7,135 bases of DNA from Escherichia coli. GTDB taxonomy: Bacteria; Pseudomonadota; Gammaproteobacteria; Enterobacterales; Enterobacteriaceae. Below, one piece after another: positions 1 through 3,000 of the stretch (its first letter is position 1; each line of letters opens with the position of its first letter). Made by a program: the position numbers. Location of the stretch: the NCBI RefSeq assembly GCF_003334255.1, contig NZ_QOWU01000096.1, one strand, 5' to 3'.

Positions 1-3000
1 CTGGCGGTGCCTGTTGATAAGGCTGTTGAGCTTGTCAGGGATCGCAGTAAATTCGCGGAAATTTCGAAAAATTTCGGTTATTTCACGCCGAAGCAGGAGG
101 GGCTTTCTCTGAAAGATATTCAGAAAGAAGCCAGCCAGGTAGCAGCGGAAGCGATCAAGAACGGCGGTAATGCTCAGGCTGCGAGGGATGAATTTTTAGC
201 TGCGCATGGTTTACCGGAATATCAGCAGAAAATTCAGCAACAGAAATTTGAACAGCTTTTACAGAAGGGGCAGACCTGGGCGGAGGGCGATCCGGTCAAA
301 CTGGAGTTTGTCAAAGCGACTGCCGCCAATATGCCAGCCTTGCTGGAACCGGGGCGTGAAAAGGAACTGGAAATTTGGTACCAGAATCACCTCCGGGATA
401 AAAAAGCCGAACAGGAAAAAGCGAAGAATTATAGCGCTGCTGCATCAGCCGAAGAGATCAGAGGCTGGATGAAGTAAAGTTACGCGGCAGTAACGCGCTC
501 CCCGTTAATATCGTTCACTTACGCCCGACCATCGTGTCGGGCTTTTTTTTACTGGAGTCTGTATGGCTTTTTCAGATGAGCAGCGCCCTGAAGCGCAATT
601 GGGTAACCAGAACCGCAGCAGCCTGAACATTAAGCAGCCGGGAGAAAATTACTGGCAGGATTTTTTCAGCAACCCGCAGAATGCCATTGATCACAGCACA
701 TCGTTCAGCCTCGGTGATGTATTGCCAACAATGGGTAAAGGTTTCGCCCAGTCCGTCCGGGGAACAGGGGAGATGGTCCGTGGACTCGGTGATGGATTTG
801 TAAATAATCCTGTAAAAACGCTTGCCGGGTTGTCGTCTTTCATGACGGATGTTTACATGCCGCCTTCCTCCACGCAAAAGGAACTGGGCGCGCCACCTTC
901 TGTTGGAGATGCGATTAAAAACATTCCCGATGGAACAGGTAAAAACGCGGTCACTGATACTGTCGGTGAAGGTCTGAAAGCAACCGGTAAGGCAGTCAGT
1001 GATGGTGCCAAAGCCTCGGATGAATGGCTGACAGATCAGATGTCGCCGGGTGCTGTTCGTGCGCTGAACACGCCAATGAGTGAAGGCTATGATGATTCTG
1101 CGGTCTTGCTGACGAAGGGTGTAAACCTGATTGGTGCGCTTGTACCTGATCTGGTTGCTGGCGGTGTGGTTAGAAAGGTGGGACAGGTCGCACTGAAAAG
1201 AACGCTGACCGCCGGGCTGGAGAAAAAATACATCGCGGCAGGAGTGCAGCCGGAAAGAGCCACGGCACTGGCAGCAGAAGCTGTCGATAAAAAAATGACG
1301 GATTTCTTCCATGCGGGCCTGATCACCCATTCCACAGCCAGTGCACAGGGGCAGAGTGCAATGTCGGCAGCAGATGCTGTTCTTAATGCGGATTACGCTG
1401 AGCTGGCGCAGTCACCGAAATTTCAGCAGACGTTTTTGTCAATTGATGCAGATCCACAGCACGCACAGCTTACTGATCGCCAGAAAATGGACCTGGCAAA
1501 AGAGCGTGTTGCCGATGAGGTGCGCGCGCAGCTGGCAACCGATCCTGAATTGCTGGCTGTGAATGCCATGGCGGCAAAACTGGGTGACGCACAACTGTTT
1601 AATCTGGTGACACGAGGCACAGCGAAGACCGTTAAAAGCGGCATTGTCAGAAATGCCACGGAACAGGGCGTAATTAACGGGGCACAGAACGCCTATTCGC
1701 GCTATCAGGAAAACACGGCATTGCGTGAGACCGCCGGAATGGATGTGTCACCGTGGGAGGGCGTGGCTGACGCAACGATCGAAGGTGCAGCCTTTGGTGC
1801 TGCGATGGGGGCTCCATTCGGTGCGGTTGCCGGATATCGTGGCAGACGTCAGGCCGCAGAAGAAGCAGCCATGCGTGATGCTGAAACCGTGCAGCAGGAC
1901 GACGCAGCCCCGCAACCCGAACCGGTTGATCCGGTGGCACAGCATCGTGAATCCATGCAGGGGATGAATCGCGAGCAGCTTCTGGAACAGTATGCTGATG
2001 CGGATATGGCACATGAGGGAGACACGTCTGCCGTTCATCGCCGGGAAGCCGCCAGCCAGCTGTTGAATGAACTGGATGAACAGGCGAAGCGACAGGCGGT
2101 AATGGATGAGCTGAAGGCGAAGCCGCGCCCTGAACTGCTTGAGGAATACCGAAAACTCAGCCTGAAGGAAGGGCGTACTGATACTGAAGAGCAGCAGTTA
2201 CAGGCTATCCGTGATGTGCTTCGCCCTCAGCAGGAGGCCAGACCGGAGGCACAGCCACAGCCGGAAAATGCGGATGATGGCGACGGGAGTATTTACCCGA
2301 CGGTGCGGTTCCGCGATCCGGATGAAGTTCGTATTGAAATTAACGGGAGTGGTGCGTCCAGACCAGCAGAACGCATTGAAAAGGTGCGTCCGGACAACCG
2401 TTATTTCACGGATGAAAAAAGTGCTCTGGGGAGCGACGTTTTCCGCAATGCCAGCGCCACCGGCCTGAAACCGTCCGTAGTGAAGAAAGGCGAGAATCAG
2501 TATGCCGTTGAAATGGATAATCCTGCGTTCTCTGAAGATGTGGCAACGGAGACCATTAACACCCTGGCTGACGGAGAGCGTATTGCTGATGCTGAACCGA
2601 TGGAGCAGCCCGCGTTCATGCGTGACCCGCGATTCCGTGGTTTCACGGGGGATGATACAGAAGTGCAGGCCCGCCTTGCCCGTGGCAACGCGCCGACGGC
2701 AGAGGAGCTTGTACGTTCACAGATGGCTGAAGGTGATGCCGGTCCGACAGCACAGGAGTTAACTGAGCGTCCACGCCTTCCCGCTCCCGGCGATATTCAT
2801 CCCGGACAGGGATATCCGTTACCAGGAGAAGTGGCGCGTACGCCGGATGAAAATCAGGCCGGACGTGGTGGTCGTTTTACCACAACCGGTGAGGTGAAGG
2901 GCCAGAGTTTCCAGAAAGGACGTGCGCAGGCACCGGAAAATGCCGCTGGTCGCCAGGGGGAAATACTGGAGGGCGAACCGGTTCGTCGTGGTCTGCCGTC

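What the first reader, a model, noticed from the sequence alone, without database searches (positions are those of the whole stretch)
478..565. Strong intrinsic terminator directly abutting the RBS of the giant gene
The hairpin-plus-T8 terminator (523-550) ends only 3 nt before the GGAG and 12 nt before the ATG, leaving no room for a promoter. I see no convincing -35/-10 in 478-522. Expression of the giant ORF therefore appears to depend on read-through or antitermination from upstream, which would keep its dosage low relative to the upstream gene. Alternatively the hairpin is a 5'-UTR stability or translation element of a transcript initiated inside the upstream gene.
Basis: seen in the sequence. 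Interest (0 to 1): 0.4.

Follow-up and report, generated by a model that had tools for sequence, protein, structure and literature searches.

The report
Read-through terminator in phage late operon
A conserved transcription stop signal sits just in front of a giant virion gene in a Shiga-toxin-type prophage, and it is an ordinary feature of lambda-like late operons, which the phage's own Q protein lets RNA polymerase read through.

Summary
GCCCGAC-CATCGT-GTCGGGC (523-542) plus T8 (543-550) is a textbook intrinsic terminator (dG -13.8, z -4.8). It was the only strict hit in the window, against 0 in 300 shuffles. It lies 3 nt before GGAG and 12 nt before the ATG (563) of a 2789-aa gene, and no promoter-like site precedes it.

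The window is 100% identical to Escherichia phage PhiR12_3, a 933W/Sp5-like lambdoid prophage. The site lies between homologues of Sp5 ORF79 (ECs1241) and ORF80 (ECs1242). Both are essential late morphogenesis genes.

The hairpin, T-run and spacing to the RBS are kept across the family, and two stem pairs show compensatory changes. The phage encodes a Q21-family antiterminator about 32.5 kb upstream, and nearly all genes in between are on the same strand.

At least seven strong same-strand terminators lie in this part of the late gene cluster. Four of them abut the next RBS in the same way.

Published RNA-seq shows ECs1242 co-induced with the late genes, with about 2-fold lower induction than ECs1241.

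Best reading: an internal late-operon terminator read through by Q-modified polymerase. It stops unmodified polymerase and may trim dosage.

The parts
1..477 (+). 3' end of the upstream late gene. It is 420 aa in the full phage, belongs to PHROG 601, and is the homologue of Sp5 ORF79/ECs1241. The stop codon TAA is at 475-477.
   Evidence: The Sp5 homologue is essential for tail assembly (PMC5155283).
523..542 (+). Terminator stem-loop GCCCGAC-CATCGT-GTCGGGC (7 bp, 6 G-C, 6-nt loop).
   Evidence: All 12 distinct family sequences keep every pair, and 2 of 7 pairs show compensatory changes. Pairing probability is about 1.0 in the mRNA context.
543..550 (+). T8 tract (the U-tract of the terminator). 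Relatives have 7-9 T.
554..557 (+). Shine-Dalgarno GGAG of the giant gene, 5 nt before the ATG. It is invariant in the family.
563..7135 (+). First 2191 codons of the 2789-aa giant gene. It is a polyvalent virion protein with LPD5, LPD1, MuF_C and LPD38 domains, belongs to PHROG 616, and is the homologue of Sp5 ORF80/ECs1242.
   Evidence: The Sp5 homologue is essential (PMC5155283).
479..495 (+). Small hairpin GTTAC-GCGGCA-GTAAC just after the stop codon. It is a weak, optional part. The 933W type has a 7-bp version that overlaps the end of the upstream ORF.
   Evidence: The stem is weakened in L044 and L046, so it is not established as functional.

Best explanation
This is a genuine Rho-independent terminator inside the late operon of a 933W/Sp5-like lambdoid prophage, and it is under selection. 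It sits between the ORF79-like tail-assembly gene and the giant ORF80-like polyvalent virion gene.

There are only 12 nt between the U-tract and the start codon, and no promoter-like sequence lies upstream. Every polymerase that transcribes the giant gene together with its RBS must therefore pass the hairpin.

During lytic growth the polymerase that starts at the late promoter just after gene Q carries the phage's Q21-family antiterminator. In the solved Q21 complexes, Q narrows the RNA exit channel so that terminator hairpins cannot form. That polymerase reads through this terminator and the other internal terminators, so the giant gene is made as the distal part of the late transcript.

Polymerase without Q stops here. 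This includes transcription in the lysogen, from moron promoters such as lom and the ECs1237-like gene, or from spurious starts. The giant gene is thereby kept silent outside the lytic cycle.

In read-through mRNA the same hairpin can protect the 3' end of processed upstream message. Incomplete read-through may lower giant-gene mRNA by about 2-fold.

Shown: the anatomy, the conservation and covariation, the genomic context, and the essentiality and co-induction of the homologues. Inferred: actual termination, Q-dependence of read-through, and the insulation and dosage roles.
For: Anatomy and statistics
- Canonical hairpin plus T8, dG -13.8, z -4.8.
- It is the only strict hit in the window, and 0 hits occur in 300 shuffles.
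- No promoter-like site of 8/12 or better lies in 300-575.

Identity
- The window is 100% identical to phage PhiR12_3.

Conservation
- Three hairpin variants occur among 12 distinct sequences from about 50 related loci. All pair fully. Pair 6 switches A-U to G-C, and pair 1 goes G-C, G-U, A-U.
- The T-run (7-9 T) and GGAGTCTGTATG are invariant.
- The block 526-585 is 85-88% identical to 933W, whereas the upstream 250 nt are about 55% identical.

Antiterminator
- The Q gene is at 20537-20962 of the record. It matches PHROG 79 (E 4e-46) and is homologous to Q21 in PDB 6P18/6JNX (E 4e-8).
- A promoter-like TTGAAA-16-TAGAAT overlaps the Q stop codon.
- The mechanism of Q21 is described in bioRxiv 10.1101/651190. 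Late transcription of Stx phages from PR' under Q is described in PMC7547250.

Operon context
- Nearly all genes from Q to the giant gene are on the + strand.
- Seven strong same-strand terminators lie in the cluster from the portal gene to the giant gene, and more lie between Q and the terminase gene. Terminator-like sites number 43 against 18.2 +/- 3.9 in shuffles.
- Four junctions share the hairpin, T-run and SD layout. The homologous terminators are present in Sakai Sp5.

Function of neighbours
- Sp5 ORF79 and ORF80 are both required for infectious particles (PMC5155283).

Expression
- On prophage induction the log2 fold-changes are about 5.0 for ECs1238-1240, 4.46 for ECs1241, 3.35 for ECs1242 and 3.03 for ECs1243 (PMC5931665 table S2).
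Against: There is no direct transcript mapping for this phage or at this site. Termination efficiency and Q-dependent read-through are predicted, not measured.

The candidate late promoter next to Q also lies directly upstream of a hok-like locus, so it could belong to that locus. No tR' was identified.

Q would have to stay on the polymerase for 32-41 kb, which is longer than the roughly 25 kb known for lambda (my own knowledge). An unrecognised secondary late promoter somewhere upstream cannot be excluded.

The RNA-seq figures are fold-changes from a related prophage (strain PA20 mapped on Sakai). They are not absolute levels and are confounded by baseline expression.
Confidence: 0.75

Rival explanations
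1. Dosage-tuning attenuator. Even Q-modified polymerase terminates here at a substantial rate. On this reading the main role of the element is to set a lower mRNA level for the giant, low-copy virion protein than for the upstream tail genes. This overlaps with the best explanation and differs only in which role is primary.
For: Induction drops by 1.1 log2 units between ECs1241 and ECs1242 and stays low in ECs1243-1244. T8 with a 6 G-C stem is a strong terminator by sequence. A 2789-aa polyvalent protein is plausibly needed in few copies (inference).
Against: Fold-change is not an absolute level. Induction already declines before the site (5.0 to 4.46) and declines gradually along the operon. 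A similar terminator after the capsid-gene homologue ECs1223 shows almost no step (6.42 to 6.20). Q-loaded complexes are described as termination-deficient (bioRxiv 10.1101/651190 and 10.1101/2022.03.25.485794).
Confidence: 0.3
2. RNA element of the giant gene's own message. The hairpin would be a 5' stabiliser after processing, and the U-tract next to the SD would be a translation enhancer (binding of ribosomal protein S1 to U-rich leaders). It would not be a working terminator.
For: The hairpin, U-run and SD form a local conservation peak that travels with the giant gene's 5' end rather than with the upstream gene (the plasmid hits start at 502 or 523). The T-run abuts the SD at four junctions.
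Against: The structure is a canonical terminator in every respect, and the U-tract directly after the stem is exactly what termination requires. There is no promoter-like site for a separate transcript. In predicted folds the SD is mostly paired, and with different partners in different relatives, so no conserved translation structure appears. No Rfam family matches.
Confidence: 0.1
3. Operon boundary. The terminator ends the upstream transcription unit, and the giant gene has its own promoter that was not recognised.
For: A terminator after a stop codon is the usual end of an operon. The consensus scan covers only sigma-70-type promoters.
Against: Only 12 nt separate the T-run from the ATG, and they contain the SD. 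A promoter upstream of the hairpin would meet the terminator at once. The best -35/-10 pairs in 300-575 score 7/12. ECs1242 is co-induced with the late genes.
Confidence: 0.05
4. 3'-end-derived small RNA. The terminator would define the 3' end of an Hfq-binding sRNA cut from the end of the upstream mRNA.
For: Prophages of EHEC encode many Hfq-bound sRNAs that end at intrinsic terminators (PMC4104026).
Against: No EcOnc peak or top-ranked intergenic Hfq site is listed for ECs1241...ECs1242. 'ECs1241' does not occur at all in the supplement. Those data come from uninduced cells, in which the late operon is silent. No Rfam match was found.
Confidence: 0.04

Closest known systems
Terminators of lambdoid late operons read through by Q-modified RNA polymerase (lambda/21/82 tR' and downstream sites; 933W/Sp5 PR'-tR')
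   Same: It is an intrinsic hairpin plus U-tract, co-oriented with the late genes and located downstream of a Q gene. Expression of distal late genes requires processive antitermination (PMC7547250; bioRxiv 10.1101/651190). The Q protein here is homologous to Q21.
   Different: It is not the promoter-proximal tR' that makes the regulatory decision. It lies about 32.5 kb downstream, between two structural genes, and is one of at least seven such sites. It directly abuts the next RBS.
Moron terminators in lambdoid prophages (for example after lom or bor)
   Same: The sequence type is the same, and so is the position inside the late region. The lom homologue upstream has one (L001 16936-16956).
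   Different: No moron (promoter plus lysogen-expressed gene) precedes this one. The upstream gene is an essential morphogenesis gene in Sp5.
Partial terminators inside phage structural operons that shape relative mRNA levels (for example T7 T-phi after the capsid gene; from my own knowledge)
   Same: It is an internal hairpin terminator after a structural gene, followed by more essential genes. It could act both as a 3' stabiliser and as a partial stop.
   Different: T-phi acts on T7 RNA polymerase without an antiterminator. Here read-through is expected to depend on Q. A partial-stop role is only hinted at by a 2-fold difference in fold-change.

Membership tests
Rho-independent (intrinsic) terminator | G+C-rich stem-loop of about 5-11 bp with a short loop | tested here: met
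   The stem is 7 bp with 6 G-C and a 6-nt loop. dG is -13.8 kcal/mol and z is -4.8.
Rho-independent (intrinsic) terminator | Run of T (U) directly after the stem | tested here: met
   T8 starts at the base after the stem. It is the only T run of 7 or more in the window, and relatives have 7-9 T.
Rho-independent (intrinsic) terminator | Structure maintained by selection (pairs kept through compensatory change) | tested here: met
   All 84 cells pair. Two of 7 pairs change on both sides and 1 changes on one side, and slid controls give 23-44% paired. Only three lineages are involved, so independent events are few.
Rho-independent (intrinsic) terminator | RNA 3' ends formed at the U-tract in vivo or in vitro | not testable with these tools
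   Term-seq for strain Sakai exists (GSE143631, cited in PMC7547250), but the data cannot be read here.
Internal terminator of a Q-antiterminated lambdoid late operon | Q antiterminator gene upstream in the same genome | tested here: met
   The annotated Q gene is at 20537-20962. It matches PHROG 79 (E 4e-46) and Q21 structures 6P18/6JNX (E 4e-8).
Internal terminator of a Q-antiterminated lambdoid late operon | Late promoter with a Q-loading site just after Q, and a tR' | tested here: inconclusive
   A 10/12 promoter-like site overlaps the Q stop codon. It also precedes a hok-like locus. No Q-binding element or tR' was identified.
Internal terminator of a Q-antiterminated lambdoid late operon | Co-directional gene array from Q to the site, with the flanking genes being late genes | tested here: met
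   Annotation of PV340552.1. The Sp5 homologues are essential for morphogenesis and are co-induced.
Internal terminator of a Q-antiterminated lambdoid late operon | Read-through depends on Q | not testable with these tools
   This needs a Q mutant or in vitro transcription.
Regulated attenuator or riboswitch leader | Alternative (antiterminator) structure or known aptamer upstream of the terminator | tested here: not met
   No Rfam match better than E 0.34 was found, and all matches are far below gathering scores. Terminator pairs have probability 0.98-1.0 in the ensemble. The 131-nt region is no more structured than shuffles (z -0.62).

The most novel reading that the evidence does not exclude
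The hairpin, U-run and SD unit may be a reusable two-state junction cassette of these phages. For unmodified polymerase it is a stop that insulates each late gene block, and especially the giant polyvalent gene, from lysogenic and moron transcription. For Q-modified polymerase the hairpin becomes an mRNA segment boundary, and the U-run placed directly 5' of the SD acts as a translation enhancer. The cassette would travel with the downstream gene when modules are exchanged, as the conservation peak at 526-585 and the homology breakpoints at 502 and 523 suggest.
Probability: 0.2. Interest if true: 0.35.

Novelty: new member of a known kind. Interest (0 to 1): 0.15.

Why it matters
The result mainly closes the question. 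The apparent paradox of an essential giant gene with no promoter behind a strong terminator is what processive Q antitermination predicts. The same layout recurs along the operon.

It has three small practical uses.
1. It fixes the true start codon of the giant gene. Reference records of 933W and phi24B start it 39 nt too early, inside the hairpin.
2. It marks at least seven internal terminators that can serve as natural read-outs of Q activity over more than 30 kb in Stx-type phages.
3. It suggests why the distal late genes show lower induction in published RNA-seq.

Tried and rejected
- **Rfam scan of 1-1500 at E up to 10.** It returned only chance-level matches on the terminator hairpin, so no known RNA family is present.
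- **Promoter search.** The tool scan and my looser scan found nothing above 7/12 upstream of the ATG.
- **Bidirectional terminator.** I rejected this because the minus strand has no T-run after the hairpin. The minus-strand hairpin at 498-482 is weak (5 bp, poor tail).
- **SD-sequestering structure.** The SD is predicted to be paired, but with different partners in three relatives. It is not conserved, so I dropped it.
- **sRNA at this site.** The Hfq CRAC tables of PMC4104026 list no peak at ECs1241/ECs1242. The nearest entries are EcOnc53, just after lom on the minus strand, and EcOnc36, inside the giant gene on the minus strand.
- **NCBIfam on Q and the upstream protein.** No hits.
- **Wider relatives.** An alignment-based scan of viral contigs found only the same E. 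coli/Shigella Sepvirinae group. Conservation beyond that group is untested. I ran no further search on it, because the conclusion would not change.
- **phi191.** Its giant gene is broken by frameshifts, but it keeps the terminator.

Full report
**Observation**

- The upstream ORF ends at TAA 475-477.
- The stem-loop GCCCGAC-CATCGT-GTCGGGC occupies 523-542.
- T8 occupies 543-550, GGAG 554-557 and the ATG 563-565.
- The ORF from 563 runs open to the end of the window.

The hairpin alone folds at -13.8 kcal/mol, against -4.5 +/- 1.9 for shuffles. That gives z = -4.8, and 0 of 200 shuffles fold as well.

The loose terminator pattern of the scanning tool is not enriched in the window (7 found, 7.9 +/- 2.7 expected). 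That scan alone does not prove anything. I therefore ran a strict definition: 7 perfect pairs, at least 6 G-C, and at least 7 T in the 8 bases after the stem. It finds this site only, on either strand, and nothing in 300 dinucleotide-preserving shuffles. The T8 is the only T run of 7 or more on the + strand.

No sigma-70-like -35/-10 pair better than 7 of 12 lies on the + strand in 300-575.

**Where the window comes from**

Bases 1-1500 are 100% identical to Escherichia phage PhiR12_3 (PV340552.1, positions 52930-54429). They are 84-91% identical to many Stx-converting phages of the 933W type.

In PhiR12_3 the giant gene is 8370 nt (2789 aa). It is the last gene before the right end of the record.
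- It matches PHROG 616 end to end, and its C-terminal part resembles DarB-like proteins.
- It carries the Pfam domains LPD5, LPD1, MuF_C and LPD38. It is therefore a 'polyvalent' virion protein.
- In E. coli O157:H7 Sakai prophage Sp5 the same pair of genes is ECs1241 (ORF79) and ECs1242 (ORF80, 2793 aa).

A systematic deletion study showed that both genes are needed for infectious Sp5 particles. Mutants lacking either gene packaged DNA normally, and EM showed heads like those of the wild type. The authors assigned both genes to tail assembly (PMC5155283).

The giant gene is thus an essential late gene, and it must be transcribed across the terminator.

**Is the hairpin under selection?**

I collected about 50 related loci from viral contigs and phage records. 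They give 12 distinct sequences for the junction, with three hairpin versions:
- GCCCGAC...GTCGGGC (the window type);
- GCCCGGC...GCCGGGT (933W, Sp5, phi24B, phi191);
- ACCCGGT...GCCGGGT (13 loci).

Every sequence pairs at all seven positions. Pair 6 switches A-U to G-C. Pair 1 goes G-C, G-U, A-U. Pair 7 goes C-G to U-G. Sliding the partner by 1-3 columns drops pairing to 23-44%.

The T-run is 7-9 long in all sequences, and GGAGTCTGTATGG is invariant. Only three lineages are involved, so the number of independent events is small, but nothing breaks the stem.

Against 933W, the last 250 nt of the upstream gene are only about 55% identical. Positions 526-585 are 85-88% identical. Megablast matches to plasmid-borne copies begin at 502 or 523.

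The hairpin-RBS block is therefore a local conservation peak that goes with the giant gene's 5' end.

**Context that explains it**

The phage is lambdoid. It has integrase, cI and cro, and an annotated antitermination protein Q at 20537-20962.
- That protein matches PHROG 79, 'anti-termination protein Q-like' (E 4e-46).
- It is homologous to Q21, whose complexes with RNA polymerase are solved (6P18, 6JNX; E 4e-8).
- A 10/12 promoter-like site (TTGAAA-16-TAGAAT) overlaps the Q stop codon. That is where lambdoid late promoters lie. It also precedes a hok-like locus, so its assignment is open.

From there to the end of the giant gene (about 41 kb) almost all genes are on the + strand.

In Stx phages the late genes are transcribed from PR' by polymerase that Q has made resistant to terminators (PMC7547250). 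For Q21 the mechanism is a ring at the RNA exit channel that prevents hairpin formation (bioRxiv 10.1101/651190).

**The site is not unique**

From the portal gene to the giant gene there are seven strong + strand intergenic terminators. They start at locus L001 positions 2384, 4786, 5229, 11399, 16936, 17796 and 20523. More lie between Q and the terminase gene.

Terminator-like sites in the first 20 kb of that locus number 43, against 18.2 +/- 3.9 in shuffles.

At four junctions the T-run is followed within 1-7 nt by the SD of the next gene:
- 4769 to 4824, after the gene that by position corresponds to Sp5's major capsid gene ECs1223;
- 5216 to 5267;
- 17744 to 17838;
- 20477 to 20563, which is this site.

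Sp5 has the homologous terminators at the same three distal junctions. The 'terminator abutting the RBS' is thus a recurring layout of compact intergenic regions in this operon, not a special device of the giant gene.

**Expression data from the literature**

In strain PA20, mapped on the Sakai genome, prophage induction by sulfamethoxazole-trimethoprim raised nearly all Sp5 genes (PMC5931665). The log2 fold-changes for 27x versus 0 at 12 h were:

| Gene | log2 fold-change |
|---|---|
| Q | 6.87 |
| stx2A | 7.01 |
| ECs1220 (terminase large subunit) and ECs1221 (portal) | 5.6 |
| ECs1223 (major capsid protein) | 6.4 |
| ECs1238-1240 | 5.0 |
| ECs1241 | 4.46 |
| ECs1242 | 3.35 |
| ECs1243 | 3.03 |

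I fixed the column order by matching the stx2B values in the main text to the table.

The giant gene is therefore co-induced with the late operon, as read-through from upstream predicts. Its induction is 1.1 log2 units lower than that of its upstream neighbour.

That step fits partial termination, but these are fold-changes and not absolute levels. Induction already declines before the site, and baseline transcription differs between genes. I treat the dosage effect as possible, not shown.

**Mechanism I commit to**

This is a working intrinsic terminator that Q-loaded polymerase reads through.

Any polymerase that lacks Q stops 12 nt before the giant gene's start. That includes polymerase from the moron promoters upstream, and one such gene, ECs1237, shows little induction, which would fit expression already in the lysogen. 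The 2789-aa gene is thus expressed only in the lytic programme.

The hairpin may also stabilise the 3' end of upstream message and trim distal mRNA. My confidence is about 0.9 that it is a selected terminator. It is about 0.75 for the whole model.

**Rivals**

- Dosage tuning as the primary role overlaps with the model and remains open (0.3).
- A 5'-UTR stability or translation element is unlikely (0.1). The U-tract directly after the stem is the signature of termination. No start site is predicted. The SD pairs with different partners in different relatives.
- An independent promoter is very unlikely, because there is no room and no candidate (0.05).
- A 3'-derived sRNA has no support in the Hfq cross-linking tables, although those cells were not induced (0.04).
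- A regulated attenuator or riboswitch is not supported. There is no Rfam match and no competing structure.

**Comparison with the known, and novelty**

This is the standard logic of lambdoid late operons, applied to a distal site in the 933W/Sp5 group. I found no paper that describes this particular terminator. Only two papers in the library mention ECs1241 or ECs1242. It is therefore a new member of a known kind, and interest is low.

**Limits**

- Nothing here measures transcription in PhiR12_3.
- The late promoter and tR' of this phage were not pinned down.
- Q would need to persist over 32-41 kb.
- Conservation was tested only within E. coli/Shigella Sepvirinae.

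Noticed in passing
L037 5962-6003 (933W, NC_000924.1 49025-49066) and L039 2962-3003 (phi24B); homologous to window 524-565: The reference records of 933W (NP_049532.1) and phi24B start the giant CDS 39 nt upstream, at an ATG whose G is the first base of the terminator stem (MPGHCAGFFYGVC-M...). That ATG is ACG in the window type and ATA in a third type, whereas the downstream ATG with GGAG is invariant. The Sakai RefSeq record uses the downstream ATG. The upstream start, and phi24B's 'leader peptide' note, are probably annotation artefacts.
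   Followed up: yes
window about 6100-6190, minus strand (inside the giant gene): Hfq cross-linking in O157 Sakai (PMC4104026) ranks ECs1242 17th among CDS, almost entirely from antisense reads. It lists an orphan Hfq site, EcOnc36, at 1301433-1301515 (-). With the roughly +142 nt offset between genome versions, this aligns to window 6103-6185. An antisense Hfq-bound RNA inside the giant gene may therefore exist here too.
   Followed up: partly
L001 4769-4824, 5216-5267, 17744-17838 (PhiR12_3 late operon, outside the window): Three more junctions have the same layout of hairpin, T-run and SD. By position the first follows the homologue of Sp5's major capsid gene ECs1223.
   Followed up: partly
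window 479-495 (+): A small hairpin GTTAC-GCGGCA-GTAAC lies directly after the stop codon. In the 933W type it is a 7-bp hairpin (GAATTAC-GCCCA-GTAATTC) that contains the stop codon of the longer upstream ORF. The outer pair differs G-C versus A-T, but two relatives (L044, L046) weaken the stem.
   Followed up: partly
window 250-500 versus 526-645: There is a mosaic pattern against 933W. The 3' end of the upstream gene is about 55% identical and encodes a different C-terminus (…EEIRGWMK* versus …FIRGLKQNYAQ*). The terminator-RBS block and the first 80 nt of the giant gene are 80-88% identical. A second divergent patch lies at about 800-940.
   Followed up: partly
L036 20959-21320 (PhiR12_3 record coordinates): A hok-like 'host killer' gene with its upstream leader lies directly after gene Q, where Stx phages carry PR'-tR' and stx. 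The 10/12 promoter-like site at the Q stop codon could be PR', the hok promoter, or both.
   Followed up: no
L040 4387-4439 (Sakai NC_002695.2 about 1292386-1292438), minus strand: EcOnc53, an Hfq site not detected by northern blot, is listed at 1292386-1292438 (-). That is roughly at the end of lom and its terminator. The exact position is uncertain because of the offset between genome versions.
   Followed up: no
L038 (phi191, NC_028660.1): The giant gene of phi191 is split into several annotated ORFs by frameshifts or stop codons, yet the terminator-RBS junction is intact.
   Followed up: no
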